A DNA stretch of 64,000 bases from Candidatus Saccharimonadota bacterium (GCA_019352195.1 JACAFG010000001.1:2485-66484), one strand, 5' to 3'; positions 37,235-51,701 are shown, numbered from the stretch's first letter. Program-made: numbers and translations. The notes: generated by a model from the letters alone, not told the origin.

Positions 37235-38758
37235 ATGTTTCCCATGATCTTACCCTGGCTCATAGCCGCCCTTGTGGGTGGTGGCGCCGGATACTCGTAT
37301 AACTATTTTGTCGGCAAACGACGAACCGAAACCGCCTCGGCCAAAGCCAAGGAGGTTTTAGATGATGCTCGCGCTAAGGCCAAAGAAACCGTTCTGGAAG
37401 CCAAGAGTGAAGCTATCAAAATTGCCGAGTCGGCCAGGCGAGATGAAAATGAGCGCCGCGCGCAGGTAGGCGCCACCGAGCGTCAGTTACTTGCTCGACA
37501 AACGAGCCTTGATCAAAAACTCGAAGAGCTTGATCGCCGCGGCGAGCGCTTGCGTCAATCCGAAACCGAACTCGATAGCCTCAAAGATGAGCTTCGCGGT
37601 ATTCGCACCAAACAGCAGGATAACCTCGAAAAAATTGCCAAATTATCCCGCGATGAAGCTCGCGAAAAACTCCTTCAAATGACCGAACGTGACATGCGCG
37701 CCGATCTTACCAAGCTAGCGGCTAAGCTGCAGGCCGATACTAAAACTGACGCCGAAGACAACGCACGCCTCATACTGATGACTGCCATGGAGCGTATTGC
37801 ATCGGACCAAACTACCGAGCGCACCATTACCACTGTCCCGCTACCAAGCGACGAGCTCAAAGGCCGTGTTATTGGCAAAGAAGGCCGCAACATCCAAGCG
37901 CTCGAACGAGCCACCGGCGTCGACGTGATTATTGATGAAACCCCCGGCGCCATCGTATTGTCGAGCTTCGACCCGATCCGCCGCCAAGTAGCCCGAGTTG
38001 CCCTCGAAAAACTGTTATCCGACGGCCGTATTCACCCAGCCCGTATCGAAGAGGTAGTGGCTAAAGCTCAGTCTGAGATCAACAAGCAAATGCGCGAGGC
38101 TGGTGAAAAAGCGCTCAAAGAAACCGGTGTTGTCGGCGTGCCAATCGAACTCGTCGATTTGCTCGGCGGGCTCAAATTCCGTACCAGCTACTCGCAAAAC
38201 GTACTAAAGCACTCGGTTGAAATGACGCATTTGGCCGGTATGATTGCCAAGGAAATTGGCGCCGACGTGCGGATTGCTAAAACCGCCGCGCTGCTCCACG
38301 ACGTCGGTAAAGCCGTCACGCACGAAGTCGAAGGGGGACACCACCACATTGGCGCCGACCTCGCGCGCCAGTACGGCATGGAAGAGGCCATCAGTCACGC
38401 CATCCAGGCTCACCATGACGATGTCGAAGCTACTACACCCGAAGCCCTCGTAGTGCGTGTAGTTGACGCCTTAAGCGCCGGCCGCCCTGGCGCCAGAGGT
38501 GACACGTTAGAGAACTACTCCAAGCGTATGACCGAACTCGAAAACCTGGCCAACAGTTTCCCTGGCATCTCGAAAAGCTACGCCATCTCCGCTGGCCGCG
38601 AGCTGCGCATTATCGTCGAACCGGAAAACATCGACGATTTATCTGCTATCAAACTCGCGCGCGATATTGCTACCAAAGTAGAAGCCACACTTAAATATCC
38701 GGGCGTCATCAAAGTAAACGTAATCCGCGAAACCCGCGCCATTGAATATGCCAAGTAG
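37235..38758 (+). CDS. rny: ribonuclease Y
   Basis: An N-terminal TM, a coiled coil, a KH domain (GKEGRNIQALE), and an HD domain (LLHDVGKA). Confidence 0.9.
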   Translation: MFPMILPWLIAALVGGGAGYSYNYFVGKRRTETASAKAKEVLDDARAKAKETVLEAKSEAIKIAESARRDENERRAQVGATERQLLARQTSLDQKLEELDRRGERLRQSETELDSLKDELRGIRTKQQDNLEKIAKLSRDEAREKLLQMTERDMRADLTKLAAKLQADTKTDAEDNARLILMTAMERIASDQTTERTITTVPLPSDELKGRVIGKEGRNIQALERATGVDVIIDETPGAIVLSSFDPIRRQVARVALEKLLSDGRIHPARIEEVVAKAQSEINKQMREAGEKALKETGVVGVPIELVDLLGGLKFRTSYSQNVLKHSVEMTHLAGMIAKEIGADVRIAKTAALLHDVGKAVTHEVEGGHHHIGADLARQYGMEEAISHAIQAHHDDVEATTPEALVVRVVDALSAGRPGARGDTLENYSKRMTELENLANSFPGISKSYAISAGRELRIIVEPENIDDLSAIKLARDIATKVEATLKYPGVIKVNVIRETRAIEYAK

Positions 38759-38779
38759 CGCCCGAGATATGGACAAATA

Positions 38780-39378
38780 ATGCTCGATTCACGCTTCCTC
38801 TACCTTGCTGCCGTCATCGAGTTAATCGGTGTCGCCGCCTACGCCTTTGATACCTTTAAAGGCAACACCAAACCAAACCGTGTAACGTGGCTATTATGGA
38901 CCGTAGTGCCGTTTATCGCGTTTTTTGCTCAAATAAGCGAAGGGGCAGGACTTGCAACTATCTTAACGCTCGCGGTCGGACTGGGGCCGTTATTGGTACT
39001 GTTAGCCTCATTTTTAAACAAACAGTCATATTGGCAAGTAACCAAATTTGACCTTATTTGCGGGGTAATATCAGTACTTGCACTCATATTGTGGTACATC
39101 ACCGGCAAAGGAAATGTCGCCATTATTTTCAGCATGTTAGCCGATTTTATGGCAGCCGTCCCCACGCTCGTAAAGGCCTGGAAATATCCGAAACCGAAAG
39201 CGCCAACGCCTTTTTCGCGGGTATTATTGCGGCCGCTCTCACGCTCCTGGCACTGCCAGCATATAATTTTGCCACTGTCGGCTTCCCGCTGTACTTACTG
39301 CTCAACGGCATGCTGCTGTTTGTGGTTATCCAATTTCCAGGTTTGCGGCCTAAGACATTAATTGGTCGTTCGGTGTAA
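38780..39378 (+). pseudogene. membrane protein with an apparent -1 frameshift at ~39185 (CCGAAACCGAAA repeat)
   Basis: The 38780 frame becomes KPKAPTPFSR... junk. The 39058..39378 frame continues with the TM-rich ETESANAFFAGIIAAALTLLAL... Confidence 0.45.
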
Positions 39379-39416
39379 GACGCGCTATCCTGTAACTAAC
39401 TTATGAAACAATACCA

Positions 39417-40211
39417 ATGAAAATTTTATATCTCGGCGACATCATGGGTAAGCCCGGTCGCAACGTTGTTACCAAATTATTGCCAGCACTTATTACTGAG
39501 CGCGGCATCGACTTTGTGGTAGCTCAAGGTGAAAACTTGTCCCATGGCAAAGGCCTCGAAATCAATCATGTCGAAGCCATGATGGCTGCTGGCATCAACG
39601 CCTTTACCGCTGGCAACTGGACCAGCCACCGCCCCGGCATCATCCCGTGGCTCGAAGATCCGGCCAAACCCTTGGTGCGCTGTGCCAATTACCCTGAAGG
39701 CACGCCTGGCCGCGGCTACAAAATTGTGGATACTCCAATGGGCAAAATCCTCATTGCAAGCCTGCTTGGTCAAGTCGTTGGTTATATTGATCACCCGGTC
39801 GATAATCCGCTTCATGTTATCGACAAAATTCTTGAAGAAACTAAACACGAAAATTTGATCGCCCGGGTGGTCAATTTTCATGGCGATTTCTCGAGTGAAA
39901 AACTTGTCATAGGTCGCTACCTCGACGGCCGCGCGACGCTCGTAGTGGGTGATCATTGGCATGTTCCAACCGCCGACGCCAAATTGCTCCCAGGTGGAAC
40001 CGCACACATCACCGACGTTGGTATGGTGGGATCGTACGATTCGTGTCTGGGCGTGCAAACTGACGTCATAATTAAACGCTGGCTAACCGACGAGCGTAGC
40101 CGTAATGAACTTGAGGAAAGCGGCCAAATGTGGCTTTGTGGCGTGCTAATTGACGTAAATACAGCATCTGGCCAAGCGACTACGGTAGAACAGATCATAA
40201 AATTTGTGTAA
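39417..40211 (+). CDS. ymdB: YmdB-family metallophosphoesterase (2',3'-cyclic-nucleotide phosphodiesterase)
   Basis: MKILYLGDIMGKPGR N-terminus. It lies immediately downstream of rny, as in Bacillus. Confidence 0.85.
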   Translation: MKILYLGDIMGKPGRNVVTKLLPALITERGIDFVVAQGENLSHGKGLEINHVEAMMAAGINAFTAGNWTSHRPGIIPWLEDPAKPLVRCANYPEGTPGRGYKIVDTPMGKILIASLLGQVVGYIDHPVDNPLHVIDKILEETKHENLIARVVNFHGDFSSEKLVIGRYLDGRATLVVGDHWHVPTADAKLLPGGTAHITDVGMVGSYDSCLGVQTDVIIKRWLTDERSRNELEESGQMWLCGVLIDVNTASGQATTVEQIIKFV

Positions 40212-43709: not shown

Positions 43710-44144
43710 ATGGAACGAAATAATACCACCACGAGTACCTACAGCCTTCTGATTCAGCTTATGATGCAGTCTAAACATCAGCTGCACGCGGTCGCTGAAG
43801 CACTTGGGCTCAGCGCCATGCAGGCCCAGACCCTCATGATGCTCGGTGAAGACGCCATGACAATGAGCGCCATTGGGCGTAGCTTGGCTTGCGACGCATC
43901 CAATGTCACAGGCATCGTTGATCGCCTCGATGCTGCCGGAATGATTAACCGACAACTTAACCAGTCCGACCGCCGCGTTAAGTTGGTCGATCTTAGCGAT
44001 CGAGGCAGCGAAACCCGCGGCAAAATAATATCCGGCATCGTCGAGGCCGAAATAGCACGCATTGGGCCTGCTCTCACCAATGAAGAAGTTGAAACGCTTA
44101 ATGGCCTCCTGCAAAAGCTTATTGATCGTTCGGCCGAACGCTAA
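43710..44144 (+). CDS. MarR family transcriptional regulator
   Basis: A winged-HTH (MSAIGRSLACDASNVTGIVDRLDAAGMINRQLNQSDRRV). Divergent from the MFS gene. Confidence 0.8.
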   Translation: MERNNTTTSTYSLLIQLMMQSKHQLHAVAEALGLSAMQAQTLMMLGEDAMTMSAIGRSLACDASNVTGIVDRLDAAGMINRQLNQSDRRVKLVDLSDRGSETRGKIISGIVEAEIARIGPALTNEEVETLNGLLQKLIDRSAER

Positions 44145-44161
44145 AACCACTAATTCTATCT

Positions 44162-44190
44162 AAAAAACCTCACGAATCGTGAGGTTTTTT
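44162..44190 (+). terminator. rho-independent terminator after marR
   Basis: aaaaaacctcacg-aat-cgtgaggtttttt. Confidence 0.75.
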
Positions 44191-44223
44191 AGATAGAACA
44201 AAAACGCTTTCGATGATAATTTC

Positions 44224-44298
44224 TGGTGCGGGTAGAAGGAATCGAACCTTCATCCTCTGCTTGGAAGGCAGATATATTAGCCGTTATACGATACCCGC
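44224..44298 (-). tRNA. tRNA-Gly (anticodon TCC), CCA encoded
   Basis: Reverse complement: GCGGGTA TC GTAT AACGGCTA ATAT A TCTGC CTTCCAA GCAGA GGAT GAAGG TTCGATT CCTTC TACCCGC A CCA. Confidence 0.8.
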
Positions 44299-45111
44299 AA
44301 ATAGTTTCAAACGAAGACCACATCAGTTTACCAGAACAAAAACCACTATAGCAAAGCCTGTCATAAAGAAATGGACTCCGAGCCGTAAGGCTAAGAGTCC
44401 GGATGGTCAGTGGAGCCTCAGGCAGCTCGGGACTACCTGAGGCGACACCTATCGTCGCAGATCGCGCGATTACTCACGCGGATGGCCGGCGATGGCCCAT
44501 GATATCCGCCGCACGCGGACATCATACTGTCGATCAGCCCTTCAGCGGGCATTTATTTGGGCAACCTACCCGAGCAATAGCTCCCAGCAACCCGGGGAGC
44601 ACCAGATTTACACAATAGGACCGGATTAAGCTCCAAGGCCCACATGAGATACCTGGCTGGTAAGGGGGCCTGCCACGGCCCAGCATGTTTGTTGCCAGCG
44701 GTTGGCGTTCCGCAGGCTCATCTGGTCATTGGGGGTGCCCGAAGGCAAACGGACGCAGTGCCAGTCCTGGTCCCAAGGTGGTCAAATCCTTGCCTATTAT
44801 AACTTGGCATCGCGACCAACGATGTTGCCGCCACGTGGACACTTGTGCGGTAAGCGCCTCTCGTCTGTGGCCACGACGAGATGTCATCGAGCAGGTGGAA
44901 CCCCTGAAGTAGGGCTTCCACCGGTGCGCTCGACTACCAAATTCGCTCCTTGCGAAGCGATTAATGAGTTTTAATAAACCCACACATCGCGTCACAAGTA
45001 AAAATATAATAGACCTAATAATTAGTATTGTCAATACTAAAGCTATTCAAAGCGGTTGGGGCAAAATGCCACCCTACCCGTCATCTCCAACATGACTTAG
45101 TTTGGAATCAA

Positions 45112-45128
45112 GGATCGAGCCCAAATTA
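45112..45128. repeat. left copy of a 17-nt direct repeat, GGATCGAGCCCAAATTA (candidate att core)
   Basis: Matches 50085..50101 at 16 of 17 positions. On the minus strand it resembles a tRNA T-arm (TTTGGGCTCGATCC). Confidence 0.4.
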
Positions 45129-45339
45129 CCATACCGTCACTAAACTTGCCGGCTTCTCGTAAGTATAATTTCTGGTCGCAGTACACATACTGCTTACGAA
45201 CCTATACTGGAAGCATTATACAACCTGCTGCTGAATTACAAGCTACTGAGGTCAAAACTTACCAACTTGAACCAACTTGTTGCCGATTTAATTAAATCCG
45301 AGCGTGCTACCACGACACAATTCTTGTTATAATATAAGT

Positions 45340-45522
45340 ATGAGCGACACAGAAGACAACCAACCCCAAGACCAGACCCCTGCCGAGCCTGTTTCTTTGC
45401 CGCCTCAAGCGTCGCCACAGGATACTTCTAACTGGGATGACCGGCCATTTACAACGCCAAGCGATAGGATTGTGATAGAGACTTTTCAGGGTGACGAAAG
45501 TGGCAAAACAGTCGCTGAGTAG
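45340..45522 (+). CDS. small acidic hypothetical protein (island)
   Basis: A 60 aa product with a TATAAT box 6 nt upstream of the ATG. AT-rich codon usage. Confidence 0.3.
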   Translation: MSDTEDNQPQDQTPAEPVSLPPQASPQDTSNWDDRPFTTPSDRIVIETFQGDESGKTVAE

Positions 45523-45654
45523 CTATACCAATGAAGCTATGAGCCTGTCTTAAATACACGACGCAAAATTATTAAAAATTAACAGAGGTAGATACCGTAT
45601 CCATACCCTATGCATACGGTATACAAATCCTTTATAAGCCATTCACAAACCATT

Positions 45655-46068
45655 ATGAGTAAAACGCTAGACGATAAGCAGCAATTTATAGAACTACGAG
45701 CAAAAGGTTATAGCTTTAGCTGTATTGCTGACGAACTGGGTATAAGCAAACCTACCCTTATAGGCTGGTCGCAAGAAGAAGATACCAACAAAGACATACA
45801 CAACCTGCAAACGCTGTATATGGATGAGCTACAAGAGAAATACGCTATGACCAAACGCCACAGAATAGCGGTATTTGGCGAGGTTTTAAACCGTGCTAAA
45901 GACGAATTATCCAACCGAGACCTATCAACGCTACCGACAGATAAGCTAATAAACTTAGTTATTAAGCTGAGCGATACCCTAAAGCAAGACGAAACCGAAT
46001 TAGAACTACACGGCGAAGTGGAGCTACCAATGCTTAGAATTGGCGAGCTGCAAAAGTGGAATATTTAG
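45655..46068 (+). CDS. HTH-domain protein (island regulator; terminase-small-subunit-like or resolvase-HTH-like)
   Basis: LRAKGYSFSCIADELGISKPTLIGW helix-turn-helix. Confidence 0.5.
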   Translation: MSKTLDDKQQFIELRAKGYSFSCIADELGISKPTLIGWSQEEDTNKDIHNLQTLYMDELQEKYAMTKRHRIAVFGEVLNRAKDELSNRDLSTLPTDKLINLVIKLSDTLKQDETELELHGEVELPMLRIGELQKWNI

Positions 46069-46157
46069 CAGACCAAAACTTGTCCAAAAATTGACCACTT
46101 ACCTCTTTTTAATACCCCTGTAACCCTGTATAATAAAGGTATTAAGTGTGAGGTTGT

Positions 46158-46340
46158 ATGGAACAAGTAAAATCACCAGAATATCTAACTATCAGGCAAG
46201 CCTGCGAGCTATTACAAGTACACCCAAACACACTCCGCAGCTGGGACAAAAAAGGCGTATTAAAGGCTCACCGCATAGGTGTGCGTGGCATACGCCGCTA
46301 TAAGCGTGAAGACCTAATAAAGTTTATGGAGAAAAAGTAA
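46158..46340 (+). CDS. excisionase-like / MerR-superfamily HTH DNA-binding protein (Xis/AlpA-like)
   Basis: A 60 aa product: LTIRQACELLQVHPNTLRSWDKKGVLKAHRIGVRGIRRY. A GAGG RBS. Confidence 0.6.
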   Translation: MEQVKSPEYLTIRQACELLQVHPNTLRSWDKKGVLKAHRIGVRGIRRYKREDLIKFMEKK

Positions 46341-47194
46341 TGGGCGTTGATTTTGTACGGTTTAAGGCAACAGATAATGTTGAATTACAGGGCTGGTTAA
46401 ATAACGAAAGTGGTAACACGGCAGTTGTTCATATTCACGGTATGTCAGGTAATGGTTATGAAAATTACTTCTTAGATGACTTGCGGCAGATGTACGCCAA
46501 GCAGAGCGTATCCCTGTTTACGATTGATACACGAGGACGAGGCATAATTAGCGACTTTAGGCAGGGCGAAGGTTGGAAGCACGCAGGTAGCTGCTTTGAG
46601 CTGTTTGACGAAAGCATACACGACATACAAGGGGCGATAGACTATCTAAAGTCACTTGGAAAAACAAGTTTTATACTACAAGGTCACTCTTTGGGCTGCA
46701 CAAAGGTGGTTAATTATGTAATTACACAAAACCCAACAGATGTTGAAAAAGTAATCTTACTAGCCCCAACTGATATGACTGGCTGGGCAAATACAGAGCC
46801 TAAGCACCAAGATTATCTACTAAAAGCTAAGCAGCTAATCGCAGCTGGTAAGGGCGAAGAATTAGTTGACGCACAATGCTGGCTAGATAAGACCCCAATA
46901 TCGGCTCAAACTTACCCCACAATATGCGAAAAAGGCAGTTCGGCTGATATTTATGGTATCCGTGAAGGTGATACTTTATTAAGTAAAGTTGAACTACCTA
47001 TGCTAATACCCTATGGCAGTGCCGATATTGGCATTACGCAGATTGACGGCTCAATTGATAAGTGGATTGAGCGTGTAAACAAAATCAAGAACAATAACAC
47101 CCAAATATCGGTAATAGAAGGGGCAGCACACGGTTATAGCGGTTTTGAAGGGCAATTAGCGGAAATAATAGAAAGATTTATGGAGCAAAAATGA
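46340..47194 (+). CDS. alpha/beta-fold hydrolase (cargo)
   Basis: GHSLG nucleophile elbow. 284 aa. Confidence 0.7.
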   Translation: MGVDFVRFKATDNVELQGWLNNESGNTAVVHIHGMSGNGYENYFLDDLRQMYAKQSVSLFTIDTRGRGIISDFRQGEGWKHAGSCFELFDESIHDIQGAIDYLKSLGKTSFILQGHSLGCTKVVNYVITQNPTDVEKVILLAPTDMTGWANTEPKHQDYLLKAKQLIAAGKGEELVDAQCWLDKTPISAQTYPTICEKGSSADIYGIREGDTLLSKVELPMLIPYGSADIGITQIDGSIDKWIERVNKIKNNNTQISVIEGAAHGYSGFEGQLAEIIERFMEQK

Positions 47195-47919
47195 AGATAG
47201 CACTAGTAACAGGCTCAACCAAGGGTATTGGTCTAGCGACCGCACACAGACTATATGATGAAGGTACAACAGTAATCCTAAATGCTGTGAGCAATAGTGA
47301 CGAGGTAATACTGGACGAGTTTAGCGACAAATCTAGGGTAGCTTTTTATGCTGCTGATATATCAGACAAGCAAGCACTTATAAGCCTCAGGGATTTTATT
47401 AAAGAAAAATTTGGTAGACTAGATTATTTGGTAGCAAATGCTGGTGTCTTGCCACTACCTGCTGGAATAAATGATATTACAGACGAAAACATTAACCAGA
47501 CGATAGACATAAACCTGAAAGGTACTTTTAATACTGTCAAAATACTCGGTGAACTTGTTCAGGCAACTTCAAAAACTGGCTCAATCGTAACCATAACTTC
47601 CGTTGACGGTATTATTGGTGAACCTTACGGCGTAATCTATTCGGCAACCAAAGCTGGTATTATTTCACTAACTAAGTCTTTTGCACGAAACTACAAAGAA
47701 CCACTGGTGCGTGTTAATGGTATTGCACCAGGCTTAATTGACACTCCGCTTTCGGCAAGTACAGGTGAAGACCCAAGCTGGACGACAGATTTATCAGTAA
47801 TAAGGCGTATGGGTAGTGCGGAAGAAGTTGCAGCAGCAGTTCATTTCCTACTCTCGGAAGACGCAGCCTTTATTACTGGTCAGATTTTGGCAGTAGACGG
47901 TGGATTTACACTAAAATGA
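47191..47919 (+). CDS. SDR family oxidoreductase (cargo)
   Basis: TGSTKGIG cofactor-binding motif, NAG, and a YSATK catalytic tetrad. Confidence 0.85.
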   Translation: MKIALVTGSTKGIGLATAHRLYDEGTTVILNAVSNSDEVILDEFSDKSRVAFYAADISDKQALISLRDFIKEKFGRLDYLVANAGVLPLPAGINDITDENINQTIDINLKGTFNTVKILGELVQATSKTGSIVTITSVDGIIGEPYGVIYSATKAGIISLTKSFARNYKEPLVRVNGIAPGLIDTPLSASTGEDPSWTTDLSVIRRMGSAEEVAAAVHFLLSEDAAFITGQILAVDGGFTLK

Positions 47920-47930
47920 GAAACTGATAA

Positions 47931-49862
47931 ATGGCTAAATCTAAAAAGCCAACAAATACTGTACGCAAGAAGCGTGCAAAAGTATTACTGCCGAAGGATA
48001 AGCAGCTTGAAGCCGAGCAACAGTTAGCTAAGCGTAAAGAAGCCAACCCAGATGCTTACAACCTACCTGCCAGCAAACGCAGCATACAAGACCTAACAAC
48101 TTACTTTGAAGCAGTTGAAGAAGGTACAAATGTTATATTGCCCAAAGAAAAACGCCGTTATGTCATTTACCTGCGTAAGTCTACCGATGATGAGGCTAAA
48201 CAGGTACGGTCGCTAGAAGACCAGCGGTCAGAGTGCCTAGAATTGGCTCACAGGCTGCAAATAACTATTAAAGAAGAAGATATTTTAGAAGAAAGTGCCT
48301 CTGCCAAAATATCAGGTAACCGACCTATCTTTGACGATATGCTAATGGGCTTTAGAACTGGCAAGTATCACGGTCTAATATCTTGGTCGCCAGACCGCAT
48401 ATCACGCAATATGAAGGAAGCTGGCGAGGTCATAGAGATGATTGACCACGAACTGATACAGGATTTACAGTTCAAAACTTACCAGTTTGAAAACAACCCC
48501 AACGGCAAAATGCTATTAGGCATATTATTTGCCACCTCTAAGCAGTATTCTGACAAATTATCGGTAGATGTTAAGCGTGGTACTGGCGGCAATATTAAAG
48601 AAGGTAAATATAATGGCGTAGTCAAAAAGGGCTACTTTGTAGACGCTAGCACTGGCTATTTCATACCTGACGGCTATAACTGGGACTTACTGCGTGAGGC
48701 AGCTAATATGAGGCTGTATGGGGGCAAAAACAACATTGAAATAGCCCAGTTCCTTAATGATAGCCGCCTAAGTATCCGCCGAGACCAAGACGAGCCGTTT
48801 AGCGTGGTCAAGGTAGATAAACAGATGGTTGGCGACATATTTGCTGACCCCTTTTACTTTGGGCTATATCACTATGGCAAGCACCTAGCTGACCTTACTG
48901 AGCTAACTGGTTTCTTGCCGCTAATAACGCCTGACGAATACATAACACTTAACCAAGTAATGGCAACCAACTTTGGCGAAAAATCTGCTCACAAAAGCGT
49001 TCAAAACAAGCGACTAGACTATGGGCTGCTGCGAGGCAAGGTTATTTGCGACTACTGCGATGAGCAAATGCAATTCCAGCACCAACAAGTTAAGCGAGGT
49101 AAAAATGCAGGCAGCTGGGTAATTAGCTTCTATTGCCGTAACCAAAACTGCTTTAGATTTGACAAAGATAAACAGGCAGAAGCTGGCGACTTCCCTAGTA
49201 AGAGCGTTAGAGCCAAGTACATTATGGCTGCCATTGAGTGGGAGCTACGCCACTGTACCAAAAAGAGCAAAAAAGCCTACCAAATGCATATTGATAAGCT
49301 CAGGGCGAAGCTGGCACAAGATACAGCGATTGCTAAGCGTAAACTGGCAGAAGCCGAGAATGACCTACGCACAAACGAAAAGCAGTATGCACGATACCAA
49401 CAGTTTCAGGTTGACCACCCTGACGATTATATAAAGCACCACAAAGGTAAGCTGGAACACTACCAACAACTTGTAAATGTAGCTAGCCACAATATAAAAC
49501 AGGCTAAGGCTGAGCTGGTACGGTTAAGTGTTGGATTGCCAACCGAGCAAGAGTTTTACGAACTTGTTAATTCGTATCTGTTAACACTACTAAAGACTAC
49601 TGATTTAATGGAACAAGACGCCGTATGTAATGAACTAGTGTTGAACCTACGAGTTAGGAACAACGCCGTCCCTGTTATAAAGCTAAATCCGCCATACAAT
49701 TTGCTGGCGGATTTAGCTGAAATATCTACTGGTCGGGGTGAAAGGACTCGAACCTTCGACCTCATGCTCCCAAAGCACGCGCGCTACCAACTGCGCCACA
49801 CCCCGATAAGTTGTCTTGAACCTGGTAATTATAGGCTAGGGAAGCGTCGAGGGTCAATTTAA
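47931..49862 (+). CDS. large serine recombinase (resolvase domain + recombinase domain + zinc ribbon + coiled coil)
   Basis: YLRKSTDDE...SLEDQ catalytic serine region, CDYCDEQ...CRNQNC zinc ribbon, 643 aa. The 3' 133 nt run antisense across tRNA-Pro. Confidence 0.85.
   Translation: MAKSKKPTNTVRKKRAKVLLPKDKQLEAEQQLAKRKEANPDAYNLPASKRSIQDLTTYFEAVEEGTNVILPKEKRRYVIYLRKSTDDEAKQVRSLEDQRSECLELAHRLQITIKEEDILEESASAKISGNRPIFDDMLMGFRTGKYHGLISWSPDRISRNMKEAGEVIEMIDHELIQDLQFKTYQFENNPNGKMLLGILFATSKQYSDKLSVDVKRGTGGNIKEGKYNGVVKKGYFVDASTGYFIPDGYNWDLLREAANMRLYGGKNNIEIAQFLNDSRLSIRRDQDEPFSVVKVDKQMVGDIFADPFYFGLYHYGKHLADLTELTGFLPLITPDEYITLNQVMATNFGEKSAHKSVQNKRLDYGLLRGKVICDYCDEQMQFQHQQVKRGKNAGSWVISFYCRNQNCFRFDKDKQAEAGDFPSKSVRAKYIMAAIEWELRHCTKKSKKAYQMHIDKLRAKLAQDTAIAKRKLAEAENDLRTNEKQYARYQQFQVDHPDDYIKHHKGKLEHYQQLVNVASHNIKQAKAELVRLSVGLPTEQEFYELVNSYLLTLLKTTDLMEQDAVCNELVLNLRVRNNAVPVIKLNPPYNLLADLAEISTGRGERTRTFDLMLPKHARYQLRHTPISCLEPGNYRLGKRRGSI
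49730..49805 (-). tRNA. tRNA-Pro (anticodon TGG), CCA encoded
   Basis: Reverse complement: CGGGGTG TG GCGC AGTTGGTA GCGC G CGTGC TTTGGGA GCATG AGGTC GAAGG TTCGAGT CCTTT CACCCCG A CCA. Confidence 0.8.
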
Positions 49863-49939
49863 CGCTAGAACACTAGCCGAAAACGCCAAAATAGGGTAGA
49901 GTTTTAAGGTCAAATCAGCTCCACATTCAAATCATACAT

Positions 49940-50017
49940 GGCGGGTATAGCTCAGTTGGTTAGAGCGGCGGTTTGTGGTACCGTAGGTCGAGGGTTCAAG
50001 TCCCTCTACTCGCCCCA
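49940..50017 (+). tRNA. tRNA-His (anticodon GTG) with the extra 5' G(-1), CCA encoded
   Basis: G-1 + GCGGGTA TA GCTC AGTTGGTTA GAGC G GCGGT TTGTGGT ACCGT AGGTC GAGGG TTCAAGT CCCTC TACTCGC C CCA. G-1 pairs with C73, as expected for His. Confidence 0.85.
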
Positions 50018-50084
50018 GTTTTCATTCTTTGATAGCGGCTTCATATAGTCGTTATTTTGCTATTTAGTGAGTAATTCGTAATGG

Positions 50085-50101
50085 GGATCGAACCCAAATT
50101 A
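50085..50101. repeat. right copy of the 17-nt direct repeat, GGATCGAACCCAAATTA, inside a tRNA-like remnant
   Basis: The minus-strand context TTGACTTGTTTTGTCAA (anticodon-arm-like hairpin) then TTTGGGTTCGATCCCCATTACGA, with no matching 5' acceptor strand. Confidence 0.4.
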
Positions 50102-50266
50102 AGTATTGACAAAACAAGTCAATTAGCGTTTTAATAATACTCATACCTTCACATGTGCGAACTTCCGCTGCGTAATGAGAGTCAGTCTTTCATTTCGCGG
50201 CAGTAGTTCGCGGATTTTCCGGGGTGGTGATAGCTTCGGAAAATACCTACATATATCACACTGGAG

Positions 50267-51211
50267 GTGACCGTCATGGACGGTTACACGTACCGAGTAC
50301 CGAAGTACGAGATCTACCCGGTGTACAACCACCGAGAAGACGGTTCGGCGTACCCCGAACCGTCTTCCGAGACCGATTACGAAGTCTTTTCCGACTTCGT
50401 CGTTCCGAACGGGATGTGGGTACTCGAACGCCCGACCTTCGGCTGCACCTGGATCGTGGGGACGACCTACCAGCAGGTCTCATCCGAGCCCATCGATCTT
50501 CGGAGCTTGGCGTATCGTCGTACGCTCTGCATCTCGGACACACCGTTCGGCTTCGTCAAATCGGAAGAAGCTACGAGCGTGTGGGGTTCTTCCAAGCGGG
50601 TACCGACCGGTCCCTGCCTGCTGAAGTATGCCCGGCAGATTCACAAGGGTGAACTCGGCCAGGGGATTCAGATCCCCAAACTGAAGTTCGCTCGTGAATC
50701 GGCCGCGGCGGCCCGCAAGAACACCGAGTTCGAGCGTGGTCGCGACCAGAAGCGAAATCCCTTCCGCTGGGCCCGTCTCAGCGATGTCGTGGAGGCCGCT
50801 GGCCTCCCGGCCAACGTCCTGCTGCAGCGCTACTGGGCCTTCAATGGCTCAAGTATTGACTGGAGTCAGGACTACCGTACTCACCGCACCGGAGAATTTC
50901 TCCACGTGCGGATCGGCGAGACTGCCGAAGAGATCACTGCTCAGCCGTACCGCCCCACCTACCTCGACAAGACAGAGGCGGGCAACCAGATCCGTATGGA
51001 GTCAGAAGTTCACACCACCTGGATCAGGGCTGGCTTCGCCAACACCTTGCTCCGCCTGGTGGCGCTGAACTACCAGCCCGACCCCCTGTCCATCGCCTGC
51101 ACTATCAGGCCCGACCCCGACAAGGCCCCAGCCTTATCGGGGTCTTGTCATATCTGGATGATTGAACGGAATTTGATATCATTGCCCAGGCTCCGAATTA
51201 GATCTAAGTAG
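50267..51211 (+). CDS. high-GC hypothetical protein (orphan, 314 aa)
   Basis: A strong GGAGGTG RBS, a terminator downstream, and GC well above its AT-rich flanks. Confidence 0.55.
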   Translation: MTVMDGYTYRVPKYEIYPVYNHREDGSAYPEPSSETDYEVFSDFVVPNGMWVLERPTFGCTWIVGTTYQQVSSEPIDLRSLAYRRTLCISDTPFGFVKSEEATSVWGSSKRVPTGPCLLKYARQIHKGELGQGIQIPKLKFARESAAAARKNTEFERGRDQKRNPFRWARLSDVVEAAGLPANVLLQRYWAFNGSSIDWSQDYRTHRTGEFLHVRIGETAEEITAQPYRPTYLDKTEAGNQIRMESEVHTTWIRAGFANTLLRLVALNYQPDPLSIACTIRPDPDKAPALSGSCHIWMIERNLISLPRLRIRSK

Positions 51212-51265
51212 CTCGTTCGAAACTTGAGCCCTAGCTCGCCCCAGGAATTATACTAGTGACGGCAA

Positions 51266-51300
51266 TGCTGCCGTCATTTTATTTGGTAAGGTTATATGCA
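51266..51300 (+). terminator. rho-independent terminator
   Basis: gtgacggca-atg-ctgccgtcat followed by tttatttgg. Confidence 0.6.
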
Positions 51301-51326
51301 ATTTACGAACATAATTAAATACAATT

Positions 51327-51701
51327 ATGTTCATCGCTAAAGTCAAATCCCACAATTATATTAATGGCTATTGGTTCTCGGCAATTGAGTTCAGCCTGGC
51401 GAGTTTCGTGGTAGCCCCTTTTAGCTATTACTATTTGGCCCATAATCGCATTATTTTTGGAATATTGAGTATCGGCCTCATAATGAACTTTCTTGTCATT
51501 GTTGGCTTTGCGGTTGAGAGCATCATCCAAGGCGAAAGAGGTCTTGGCATGGCTTTCTATCGTGATAGGCGTGTACGTGAAAAAATCGCTAGCCAATACC
51601 CTTATCTGGGACGAGATACGATTATGTTGTGCGTTGGATTTCTGATTCCATTTTACCTAGCTACCGCAATCTACATCGAGACAGCTCACAGAAATCGTTA
51701 A
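51327..51701 (+). CDS. AT-rich hypothetical membrane protein
   Basis: A 124 aa product with four TM segments. Confidence 0.45.
   Translation: MFIAKVKSHNYINGYWFSAIEFSLASFVVAPFSYYYLAHNRIIFGILSIGLIMNFLVIVGFAVESIIQGERGLGMAFYRDRRVREKIASQYPYLGRDTIMLCVGFLIPFYLATAIYIETAHRNR

What the first reader, a model, noticed from the sequence alone, without database searches (positions are those of the whole stretch)
44970..50110. Low-GC integrative element with a large serine recombinase, Xis-like HTH, and hydrolase + SDR cargo
GC falls abruptly from about 55% to about 40%. The genes are HTH, Xis-like, alpha/beta hydrolase, SDR, and a 643-aa large serine recombinase. The right end abuts tRNA-Pro and tRNA-His, and tRNA-Gly lies about 0.7 kb to the left. 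A 17-nt direct repeat (GGATCGARCCCAAATTA, 16/17) at 45112 and 50085 resembles a tRNA T-arm and may mark the att junctions. Against a window-wide background a 17-mer with one mismatch is not rare (roughly six expected). Within about 100 nt of both composition boundaries it is improbable. The cargo enzymes (hydrolase + SDR) may be a small catabolic or detox module.
Basis: partly seen in the sequence, partly recalled or inferred. Interest (0 to 1): 0.7.

Follow-up and report, generated by a model that had tools for sequence, protein, structure and literature searches.

The report
Integrative element that splits its recombinase
A 4.6-kb mobile DNA element of a Saccharibacteria genome sits at the very 3' end of a proline tRNA gene, and integration swaps the last ~50 amino acids of its large serine recombinase because the recombinase gene straddles the recombination site; a 2021 review describes such self-splitting only for archaeal tyrosine integrases.

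Summary
The low-GC block, the five genes and the three tRNAs are real. The proposed junctions are wrong.

**True boundaries.**
- Ten other copies of the element place the ends at a 6-bp core, TGGTCG, at 45173-45178 (attL) and 49730-49735 (attR).
- That core is positions 71-76 (CGACCA) of tRNA-Pro(UGG).
- The unit is 4,557 bp.
- The 17-nt repeats lie outside it, in host intergenic DNA, and occur in no other copy.

**Split recombinase gene.**
- The recombinase ORF runs antisense into the tRNA.
- Its true last 50 codons sit at the opposite (left) end of the element, in frame across the core.
- This holds in four integrated copies tested by explicit joining; two more carry an intact tail at their left end.
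- The tail codons are under purifying selection (pN 0.26, pS 0.74).
- The full-length gene is contiguous in three related elements; two assemble as circles (4.55 and 6.9 kb).

**Evidence of mobility.**
- Only 7 of 105 evaluable Saccharibacteria-type tRNA-Pro sites are occupied.
- Cargo differs between copies, even where the recombinase DNA is 91% identical.

So this is an integrated small circular element whose attP lies inside its own recombinase gene. What the tail swap does is inferred, not shown. I found no description of this family.

The parts
45173..45178 (.). attL core TGGTCG (left junction)
   Evidence: Homology to L002, L005 and L009 and to L007 and L091 starts exactly here. The same hexamer is at attR and in the attP of the circles.
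45180..45332 (+). Displaced 3' end of the recombinase gene: 50 tail codons plus a TAA stop, with no start codon of their own
   Evidence: In frame with the LSR across the core in the window, L002, L005 and L009. Contiguous with the LSR in P0030, P0037 and P0101, two of which are on contigs that assemble as circles. Mean pN 0.26 versus pS 0.74; the other two frames show no such signal.
45197..45203 (.). CGAACCT motif in the P' arm (candidate zinc-ribbon-domain motif)
   Evidence: Invariant in 9 elements, including synonymous positions. It lies 5 bp further from the core than the same motif in the tRNA arm. This matches the attP/attB rule in PMC3783163.
45325..45333 (+). Extended -10-like box TGTTATAAT overlapping the tail stop codon, 6 nt before the ATG of the next ORF
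   Evidence: Read from the sequence. TGnTATAAT is conserved in the four aligned copies. Promoter function is inferred; the consensus scan did not list it.
45340..45522 (+). 60-aa ORF with no family match; directly follows the recombinase stop in the circular forms
   Evidence: tblastn hits in 17 of the fetched loci, covering integrated copies and circles. No Pfam or PHROG match.
45610..46068 (+). 152-aa HTH_23 DNA-binding protein (accessory, not universal)
   Evidence: Pfam PF13384. Homologues in L009, L091, L133 and L010.
46127..46134 (+). Extended -10-like box TGTATAAT ahead of the HTH_17-cargo-recombinase operon
   Evidence: Read from the sequence. A GAGG Shine-Dalgarno lies at 46150-46153. 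Function inferred.
46158..46340 (+). 60-aa excisionase-family HTH protein (candidate directionality factor or regulator)
   Evidence: PF12728 HTH_17 at 1.3e-13. TIGR01764 'excise' at 39.1 bits, above the 28.8 cutoff. PHROG excisionase hits. Present next to most copies.
46340..47194 (+). Cargo: alpha/beta hydrolase (DUF1749 / Hydrolase_4)
   Evidence: Shared only with L002-L004 (77% aa).
47191..47919 (+). Cargo: short-chain dehydrogenase/reductase
   Evidence: PF13561 at 1.3e-56. No NCBIfam model reaches its curated cutoff. Not found in the other copies of the element.
47931..49862 (+). Large serine recombinase, integrated-form ORF (643 aa). Element-encoded up to 49735; the rest is antisense of tRNA-Pro and its promoter region
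   Evidence: Resolvase + Recombinase + Zn_ribbon_recom domains. YLRKST motif with Ser84 and four conserved Cys. 433 homologues. Joining to 45173 gives a 652-aa protein.
49681..49718 (-). Conserved 14-bp inverted repeat / hairpin inside the recombinase 3' end; on the minus strand it directly follows tRNA-Pro
   Evidence: 100% complementary arms (I20). RNA fold -25 kcal/mol, z = -5.8. Nearly invariant in 15 of 16 copies, with one G-C to A-T double change. Synonymous-site identity rises here. A role as replacement terminator or operator is inferred.
49730..49735 (.). attR core TGGTCG, equal to tRNA-Pro positions 71-76 (CGACCA)
49730..49805 (-). tRNA-Pro(UGG), the host target gene, left intact by the insertion
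   Evidence: ARAGORN and Rfam at 67.7 bits. 98 of 105 evaluable homologous sites elsewhere are empty.
49749..49755 (.). CGAACCT in the tRNA T-arm (B' arm), 5 bp closer to the core than in P'
45112..45128 (+). NOT part of the element; it is host flank
50085..50101 (+). NOT part of the element; it is host DNA downstream of tRNA-His

Best explanation
Window 45173-49735 is the integrated form of a ~4.56-kb circular integrative element from a family widespread in Saccharibacteria.

**How it integrates.**
- Its large serine recombinase (LSR) recombines an attP that lies inside the 3' end of its own gene with an attB made of the last six bases of tRNA-Pro(UGG) (CGACCA, gene-encoded CCA included) plus flanking DNA.
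- The crossover falls within the shared hexamer TGGTCG.

**What integration changes.**
- The tRNA stays whole, but its native terminator is moved away. A conserved hairpin in the element now follows the tRNA.
- The last 50 codons of the recombinase gene move 4.5 kb away, to the other end of the element.
- The integrated copy therefore makes a 643-aa enzyme whose tail is read from the antisense strand of the tRNA. Excision would restore the 652-aa enzyme, whose tail is predicted to be a long helix on a flexible linker.

**Shown versus inferred.**
- Shown by sequence: the junctions, the split in-frame gene, purifying selection on the tail, circular forms with the intact gene, sporadic occupancy and cargo turnover.
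- Inferred: the tail swap makes the enzyme state-dependent, with the full-length form for integration and the tail-less form, helped by the excisionase-like HTH protein and/or the conserved 60-aa ORF, for excision or quiescence.

Hydrolase + SDR is one of many interchangeable cargo sets carried between the HTH gene and the recombinase.
For: **Boundaries**
- DNA homology to L002, L005, L009 and L091 begins at 45162-45173 and ends at 49805-49807, the 5' end of tRNA-Pro.
- The alignment shows a sharp onset at TGGTCGCAG.
- attL, attR and attP share only TGGTCG in 16 copies.

**Split gene**
- Joining gives in-frame 652-655-aa ORFs with a conserved tail and the same stop in 4 independent integrated copies.
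- The tail is also intact at the left end of L007 and L091.
- dN/dS is 0.05-0.37; mean pN is 0.26 against pS 0.74.

**Circular forms**
- P0030, P0037 and P0101 carry the tail contiguously.
- The contigs of P0030 and P0037 assemble as circles: exact 127-bp terminal overlaps, and contigs from four samples that are circular permutations of one another. GC is 41-42%. No circularity was detected for the P0101 contig (L018).

**LSR-typical att architecture**
- CGAACCT lies 5 bp further out in P' than in B', as described in PMC3783163.
- Synonymous-site conservation rises from ~0.45 to 0.66-0.87 over the attP region.

**Mobility**
- 7 of 105 evaluable tRNA-Pro sites are occupied. Empty sites have ordinary terminators.
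- L027 is an empty, partly syntenic site.
- Element GC is 40-47% while host flanks range from 34 to 53%.
- L188 has 91% identical LSR DNA with different cargo and flanks.

**Enzyme**
- Resolvase, Recombinase and Zn-ribbon domains, the catalytic Ser motif and four conserved Cys are present.
- The AF2 model shows NTD, RD, ZD with a coiled coil at 447-533, a small C-terminal domain, a disordered linker at the junction (597-611) and a tail helix at 609-640.
Against: - No read-level or experimental evidence shows that this particular copy excises.
- No empty site was found in a close relative. The predicted attB junction gave 0 exact hits.
- The circular contigs belong to relatives, not to this element.
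- The left half of attB is not conserved among empty sites. That is unusual for a sequence-specific LSR and leaves the exact crossover dinucleotide undetermined.
- The AF2 confidence for the tail is only 46-68, with very few tail-bearing sequences in the alignment.
- Nothing here tests whether the tail affects activity or directionality.
- The last three tail residues (FLL) overlap a promoter-like box, so their conservation is ambiguous.
Confidence: 0.85

Rival explanations
1. One reading: a ~5-kb island bounded by the 17-nt direct repeats (45112 and 50085) as att junctions, carrying tRNA-Pro and tRNA-His inside it.
For: - The repeat is real.
- It is the only similarity between the two flanks (0/500 shuffles).
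- It lies near both GC transitions.
Against: - No other copy of the element has the motif.
- Homology between copies stops at TGGTCG, not at the repeats.
- tRNA-Pro with tRNA-His occurs without any element in L027 and L068.
- Serine recombinases do not generate long direct repeats.
- Eight comparable 16/17 pairs exist in the window.
- Metagenome hits to the motif are all in unrelated contexts.
Confidence: 0.03
2. A fixed, no-longer-mobile genomic island: a domesticated or decaying recombinase next to tRNA-Pro that is vertically inherited in Saccharibacteria.
For: - The LSR sits next to tRNA-Pro in many genomes, often near ymdB and the RNase Y gene.
- No excision evidence exists for this copy.
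Against: - Only 7 of 105 evaluable sites are occupied.
- Circular forms exist.
- All ORFs, and the start-less tail segment, are intact and under purifying selection.
- Element GC is independent of host GC.
- Near-identical LSR DNA occurs with other cargo and flanks.
Confidence: 0.05
3. The integrated copy is a by-product. The element is primarily a small autonomously replicating plasmid, or a satellite of an unknown phage, that occasionally integrates.
For: - Circular contigs of 4.55 and 6.9 kb were recovered from several samples.
- Several element ORFs have no known function and could hide a replication protein.
Against: - No replication, mobilisation or virion gene was recognised.
- No relative was found in the viral contig collection.
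- 57 of the 120 listed homologues end in the tRNA-Pro antisense peptide (GRGER...) and 3 carry the full-length tail. The other 60 end at or near the junction or in other sequences and were not classified.

This rival changes the label, not the recombination mechanism.
Confidence: 0.12
4. The tail swap has no regulatory meaning. attP merely happens to overlap the gene's 3' end, and both enzyme forms behave alike, or the integrated form is simply dead, as with archaeal 'suicidal' integrases.
For: - All catalytic and DNA-binding domains lie upstream of the junction.
- The tail is joined by a disordered linker.
- No functional data exist.
Against: - The tail is conserved at protein level, with dN/dS of 0.05-0.37 across divergent elements. 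It therefore does something in the circular state.
- The arrangement is kept in every copy examined.
Confidence: 0.4

Closest known systems
Phage and ICE large serine integrases (phiC31, Bxb1, A118/LI, SPbeta SprA, TnpX of Tn4451)
   Same: - Domain order is resolvase catalytic domain, recombinase domain, then zinc ribbon with an embedded coiled coil.
- att sites are short with a minimal common core and no long direct repeats.
- A half-site motif is shifted 5 bp between attP and attB, as in the LI integrase model (PMC3783163).
- A small accessory protein is a likely directionality factor.
   Different: - Sequence is very distant: only the catalytic domain matches any solved structure (E = 2e-4).
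- The target is the extreme 3' end of a tRNA gene. The Hatfull review (PMC9262239) describes tRNA-overlapping attB sites for tyrosine integrases only.
- attP lies inside the integrase ORF, so integration replaces the C-terminal ~50 aa.
- The element is only 4.5-7 kb, with no phage or conjugation genes.
- The host is a CPR bacterium.
SSV-type 'suicidal' tyrosine integrases of archaeal viruses and plasmids (SSV1, pTN3, pT26-2)
   Same: - The recombination site lies within the integrase's own gene.
- The target is a tRNA gene.
- Integration partitions the gene, and its two parts flank the integrated element (PMC8371274).
   Different: - Those are tyrosine recombinases. The review states they are found exclusively in Archaea.
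- They have long (tens of bp) common cores.
- Their split removes an essential part of the enzyme.
- Here the enzyme is a serine recombinase in Bacteria, the core is 6 bp, and only a C-terminal helix beyond all known domains is exchanged.
Integration-dependent immunity of cluster G/N/P mycobacteriophages (BPs)
   Same: - attP lies inside a coding gene.
- attB overlaps the 3' end of a tRNA.
- Integration changes the C-terminus of the encoded protein and thereby its behaviour (PMC9262239).
   Different: - In BPs the split gene is the repressor, not the integrase.
- The integrase there is a tyrosine recombinase, with a 35-bp core.
- The removed piece is a degradation tag.
Small integrative mobilisable elements and integrative plasmids
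   Same: A small integrase-plus-excisionase module with variable cargo, sporadic distribution and a circular excised form.
   Different: No relaxase, oriT or replication gene was recognised. How the element transfers between cells is unknown.

Membership tests
Large serine recombinase (serine integrase) | N-terminal resolvase-type catalytic domain with the nucleophilic serine | tested here: met
   PF00239 at 1.6e-17. YLRKST motif with Ser84, invariant across 58 homologues.
Large serine recombinase (serine integrase) | Recombinase domain followed by a zinc-ribbon domain with an embedded coiled coil | tested here: met
   PF07508 at 22.9 bits (cutoff 21.1). PF13408 at 19.7 bits, below its 25.3 cutoff, but four Cys (373, 376, 402, 407) are invariant. 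AF2 helices 447-495 and 507-533 form the coiled-coil insertion.
Large serine recombinase (serine integrase) | Short att sites with a minimal identical core, and a zinc-ribbon-domain motif 5 bp closer to the centre in attB than in attP | tested here: met
   6-bp core TGGTCG in 16 copies. CGAACCT at core+19 (P') versus core+14 (B'). The rule comes from PMC3783163. The assignment of the motif to the zinc-ribbon domain is inferred.
Large serine recombinase (serine integrase) | Catalyses attP x attB recombination with a 2-bp staggered cut | not testable with these tools
   Needs a recombination assay. The central dinucleotide (TC or CG by the symmetry of the P arms) is only inferred.
Integrative mobile element (site-specific) | Present in some genomes and absent from the same site in others | tested here: met
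   7 occupied and 98 empty tRNA-Pro(UGG) sites. L027 is empty with partial synteny.
Integrative mobile element (site-specific) | An excised circular form carrying attP | tested here: met
   Met for related elements: circles of 4,553 and ~6,904 bp with an intact int gene. Not tested for the window copy itself, because no reads are available.
Prophage | Virion, packaging or lysis genes | tested here: not met
   None in Pfam or PHROGs beyond weak HTH-only hits. No relative in viral contigs.
Integrative conjugative or mobilisable element | Relaxase, oriT or a type IV secretion system | tested here: not met
   No such domain in any of the element's ORFs.
SSV-type self-splitting ('suicidal') integrase | attP inside the integrase ORF, so that integration partitions the gene | tested here: met
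SSV-type self-splitting ('suicidal') integrase | Tyrosine recombinase fold and chemistry, in archaeal hosts | tested here: not met
   The enzyme is a serine recombinase in Saccharibacteria. It works like this family in one respect but is not a member.

The most novel reading that the evidence does not exclude
This would be the first bacterial, and first serine-recombinase, example of an integrase whose attP lies in its own gene. The exchanged C-terminal helix would act as a built-in directionality or state switch. The circular form makes a full-length enzyme tuned for integration. The integrated form makes a tail-less enzyme, ending in a peptide read from tRNA antisense, that is tuned for excision or silence. 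Because the attB is conserved across Saccharibacteria, the system could also serve as a natural integration vector for CPR bacteria.
Probability: 0.3. Interest if true: 0.85.

Novelty: new variant of a known kind. Interest (0 to 1): 0.72.

Why it matters
[quoted passage not shown] Here a serine integrase in Bacteria does it, and in a milder form that exchanges a C-terminal module rather than destroying the enzyme. Whether a serine integrase can carry part of its directionality control in cis becomes directly testable with two natural protein forms and defined att sites.

2. **Mobile elements in Saccharibacteria.** I found no description of mobile elements of this kind in Saccharibacteria/CPR. 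This family is abundant: 433 homologues scored, and 7 of 105 evaluable tRNA-Pro sites in the species-representative genomes scanned are occupied. It shuttles variable cargo, including hydrolases, oxidoreductases, kinases, methyltransferases and restriction-modification genes.

3. **A possible genetic tool.** A compact integrase with a 6-bp core at a tRNA end conserved across the group is a candidate genetic tool for these hard-to-manipulate bacteria.

Tried and rejected
- **Predicted empty-site junction.** TATAATTTCTGGTCGGGGTGAAAGG gave 0 exact hits in genome and metagenome collections. No close relative without the element is available.
- **Exact-protein look-up** of the right-flank 314-aa ORF: not on record.
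- **Viral contigs** searched with the full-length recombinase: no relative.
- **The 17-mer.**
  - 0 hits at <=2 mismatches in 1.03 Mb of related loci.
  - 49 metagenome hits, all in unrelated contexts.
  - No gapped extension of similarity between the flanks.
  - No tRNA-model hit over either copy.
  - Rejected as an att site; its origin is unexplained.
- **Intron-split tRNA idea.** I considered whether the T-arm-like 17-mers and the adjacent GC-rich blocks are intron-containing tRNA genes, as reported for Patescibacteria (PMC13011429). No group I intron or any Rfam family was detected in 44100-45400 or 50000-51500, and the geometry of the left copy does not fit. Rejected.
- **Tail-only protein search.** It returned just 4 short ORF fragments, so it gave no useful count of full-length forms.
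- **Literature.** Searches for Saccharibacteria serine-recombinase elements, and for serine integrases with attP inside int, found nothing relevant.
- **Hairpin covariation.** Not pursued, because the hairpin is almost invariant (a single double change), so pair counts would say little.

Full report
**1. Observation**

The window comes from GCA_017884045.1, contig JABBYD010000010.1. Its relatives are Saccharibacteria MAGs.

- GC is 41-46% per kb across 45001-50000. The window without the element is at 0.531.
  - HTH_23 protein, 45610-46068
  - HTH_17/MerR-like 60-aa protein, 46158-46340
  - alpha/beta hydrolase (DUF1749), 46340-47194
  - SDR, 47191-47919
  - 643-aa large serine recombinase (LSR), 47931-49862, with Resolvase, Recombinase and Zn-ribbon domains
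- tRNA-Gly, tRNA-Pro(UGG) and tRNA-His are where stated.
- The 17-mer occurs at 45112 and 50085.
It reads antisense through the whole tRNA gene (49730-49805) and through a perfect 14-bp hairpin just before it (49681-49718).

**2. True boundaries**

The LSR has hundreds of close homologues (433 scored, lengths 538-666 aa). I fetched the genomic context of several.

- In every integrated copy the LSR 3' end overlaps tRNA-Pro(UGG) on the opposite strand.
- On the right, DNA similarity between copies runs through the tRNA and collapses at its 5' end. Beyond that only the -10 box of the tRNA promoter is shared.
- On the left, similarity to L002, L005, L009 and L091 begins at window 45162-45173. In the alignment it starts sharply at TGGTCGCAGTACA.
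- The same hexamer, TGGTCG, starts the tRNA-Pro 3' end at 49730. Its reverse complement, CGACCA, is tRNA positions 71-76.

So attL is host flank | TGGTCG | element, and attR is element | TGGTCG | tRNA. The unit is 4,557 bp.

The GC transitions at ~44975 and ~50200 are edges of GC-rich host features, not of the element.

**3. The recombinase gene spans attP**

- Joining the LSR ORF at its TGGTCG to the sequence after the left TGGTCG continues the reading frame for 50 more codons, to a TAA at 45330-45332. The result is a 652-aa protein.
- The same in-frame join gives 652-655-aa proteins with a conserved tail (...STDTANEPILETLYNLLLNYKLLRSKLTDLNQLVADLIKSERA..QFLL*) in L002, L005 and L009.
- Intact tails are also present at the left ends of L007 and L091.
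- The tail segment has no start codon and begins exactly at the junction. It is nevertheless under clear purifying selection: mean pN is 0.26 against pS 0.74, with pairwise dN/dS of 0.05-0.37. The two other frames show no such signal.
- Three database proteins (P0030, P0037, P0101) carry the tail contiguously with the LSR.
- The contigs of two of them assemble as small circles:
  - L010 and L011 are 4,680 bp with an exact 127-bp terminal overlap.
  - L013 is 7,031 bp with a 127-bp overlap, and L012 is 7,102 bp with a 198-bp overlap.
  - L012-L015 come from four samples and are circular permutations of one ~6.9-kb molecule.
  - All have 41-42% GC.
  - No terminal overlap or permuted partner was detected for the P0101 contig, L018.
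- In these full-length forms the sequence is P arm | TGGTCG | tail, which is attP.
- Of the 120 listed homologues, 57 end in the peptide GRGER... that tRNA-Pro antisense encodes. The rest, apart from the 3 full-length forms, end at or near the junction or in other sequences, and I did not classify them.

**4. The att sites behave like LSR sites**

- Only 6 bp are shared by attP and attB.
- The P' arm carries CGAACCT 19 nt after the core (45197-45203). The tRNA arm (B') carries the same heptamer, part of the T-arm, 14 nt after the core (49749-49755).
- The motif is invariant in nine elements, even at synonymous positions.
- A motif 5 bp closer to the centre in attB than in attP is exactly what Rutherford et al. 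described for zinc-ribbon-domain motifs of serine integrases (PMC3783163).
- The P arms contain AGTATCT / AGATACT in inverted orientation. This places the symmetry centre on the TC/CG of TGGTCG. This is my reading; the exact crossover dinucleotide is not determined.
- Synonymous-site identity between copies rises from ~0.45 across the gene to 0.66-0.87 in the last ~45 codons. That is expected if DNA-level signals overlap the coding sequence.

**5. Consequences for the tRNA**

- The tRNA gene is untouched (67.7 bits).
- In 98 empty sites the tRNA is followed by an ordinary hairpin plus T-run of no conserved sequence. Integration moves that terminator to the far side of the element.
- In the integrated state the tRNA is followed instead by the element's conserved hairpin: -25 kcal/mol, z = -5.8, then UUUAUAAC. 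It is nearly invariant in 15 of 16 copies, with one G-C to A-T double change.
- I infer that it acts as a replacement terminator, or alternatively as an operator for a dimeric HTH protein.

**6. Mobility**

- A scan of species-representative genomes with the tRNA-Pro(UGG) sequence gave 120 loci, nearly all Saccharibacteria/CPR.
- Of 105 sites with enough flank, 7 have an LSR next to the tRNA and 98 do not.
- L027 has the same tRNA-Pro/tRNA-His pair, and an MFS transporter (52% aa identity) and MarR next to the tRNA 3' end, with no element.
- Element GC stays at 40-47% while host flanks range from 34% to 53%.
- L188 carries LSR DNA 91% identical to the window's, but with different cargo and different flanks.
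- Cargo between the HTH gene and the LSR differs in nearly every copy:
  - hydrolase + SDR (the window)
  - hydrolase + methyltransferase-NUDIX
  - AAA_18 + nucleoside deoxyribosyltransferase + histidine phosphatase
  - Ldh_2 + SDR + APH-type kinase
  - methyltransferase + AAA_14
  - genes of a restriction-modification system upstream of the LSR in L008, where the left end was not mapped

**7. Enzyme and accessory genes**

- The LSR has the YxRxST catalytic motif (Ser84) and four invariant zinc-ribbon cysteines.
- It is remote from all solved structures; only the catalytic domain matches, at E = 2e-4.
- An AlphaFold2 model of full-length P0030 (mean pLDDT 75.8) shows:
  - the catalytic domain, the recombinase domain, and the zinc ribbon with a coiled coil at 447-533
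  - a small C-terminal domain at 539-592
  - a low-confidence linker at 597-611 that contains the junction (G601-R602)
  - one long helix at 609-640, with low to moderate confidence
- The exchanged piece is therefore a separate helical module beyond all canonical domains.
- The 60-aa HTH_17 protein passes the TIGR01764 'excisionase family' cutoff.
- A 60-aa ORF with no family match (45340-45522) is present in almost all copies. In the circles it directly follows the LSR stop.
- A TGnTATAAT box overlaps that stop, 6 nt before the ORF's ATG.
- Either small protein could be the directionality factor. This is inference.

**8. Mechanism proposed**

- *Shown:* the element exists as a circle with an intact int gene and as an integrated form in which int is split at TGGTCG.
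- *Inferred:*
  - The full-length enzyme made from the circle performs attP x attB integration at the tRNA end.
  - After integration the enzyme is made without its tail helix, ending in a peptide read from tRNA antisense, and has different properties.
  - Excision restores the gene.
- Because the tail is conserved at protein level, it must function in the circular state. I put about 0.3 on a directionality or state switch. The neutral or 'crippled enzyme' alternative stays open at about 0.4.

**9. The 17-mer**

- It is not at the junctions, not in other copies, and not a recurrent motif elsewhere.
- Window-wide, such pairs are not rare: 8 at offsets of 1-20 kb.
- Between these two particular flanks, however, it is the only and a significant similarity.
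- On the minus strand it looks like a T-arm, but no tRNA model matches.
- Its origin is unexplained.

**10. Comparison with what is known, and novelty**

- By domains and att logic this is a large serine integrase system.
- It differs in three ways: it targets the extreme 3' end of a tRNA gene, it places attP inside its own ORF, and it resides on very small elements without phage or conjugation genes in CPR bacteria.
- Self-splitting integrase genes are known for archaeal SSV-type tyrosine integrases, which a 2021 review calls exclusive to Archaea (PMC8371274).
- C-terminal switching by integration is known for the repressor of BPs-type mycobacteriophages, which use tyrosine integrases (PMC9262239).
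- I found no paper describing this family.
- I therefore rate it a new variant of a known kind, with interest 0.72.

Noticed in passing
window 44300-44998 (minus strand): A ~650-nt GC-rich stretch with no called gene and no long ORF. A sigma70-like promoter (TTGACA-17-TATTAT, 45034-45006, minus strand) points into it. tRNA-Gly and a perfect 22-bp palindromic terminator (44154-44198) follow it. The predicted fold is -300 kcal/mol with z = -6.5 on the minus strand, against z = -2.5 on the plus strand. There is no Rfam match at E <= 1 and no similarity in 1 Mb of other Saccharibacteria loci. It is a candidate unknown large structured RNA co-transcribed with tRNA-Gly.
   Followed up: partly
It is T-arm-like on the minus strand, statistically unusual for these two flanks, and absent everywhere else. 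Its origin is unexplained.
   Followed up: yes
window 50267-51211: A 314-aa GC-rich (~60%) ORF with no credible Pfam family, overlapped by several ORFs on both strands. The exact protein is not on record under my start coordinate, although a 311-aa gene is called there in the source record. Whether it is a real gene was not examined.
   Followed up: no
window 49786-49862; compare L002 9806-9882: In most copies the integrated-form recombinase ORF stops at a TAG inside the tRNA D-loop region (...VPNRAR*). In the window the alignment shows one base fewer at that point (GCGCTA-CCAAC versus GCGCTAGCCAAC). That removes the stop, so the ORF runs 57 nt past the tRNA into its promoter.
   Followed up: partly
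proteins P0027, P0028, P0041, P0053, P0070, P0086, P0095, P0111: Some homologous recombinases end in other peptides that look like tRNA antisense (e.g. GRGDRIRTCDL..., GGERGIRTLES..., GWDGGIRTPEC...). This suggests that branches of the family have retargeted to other tRNA genes. P0004, P0045 and P0082 carry different long tails that may be alternative full-length forms.
   Followed up: no
L008 1-7500 (ENA ERZ27257310, k141_1772384): Upstream of a related recombinase lie a DNA methylase, an NgoFVII-type restriction enzyme, a Z1-domain protein and Vsr, with KwaA/KwaB (Kiwa) further out. These elements, or their insertion hotspot, can therefore carry anti-phage defence genes. The left end of this copy was not mapped.
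   Followed up: no
L002, L005, L008, L188 right flanks; window 37931-40211: In several Saccharibacteria the tRNA-Pro(UGG) target lies next to ymdB and the RNase Y gene. In the window these genes are ~10 kb to the left instead, so the neighbourhood has been rearranged.
   Followed up: no
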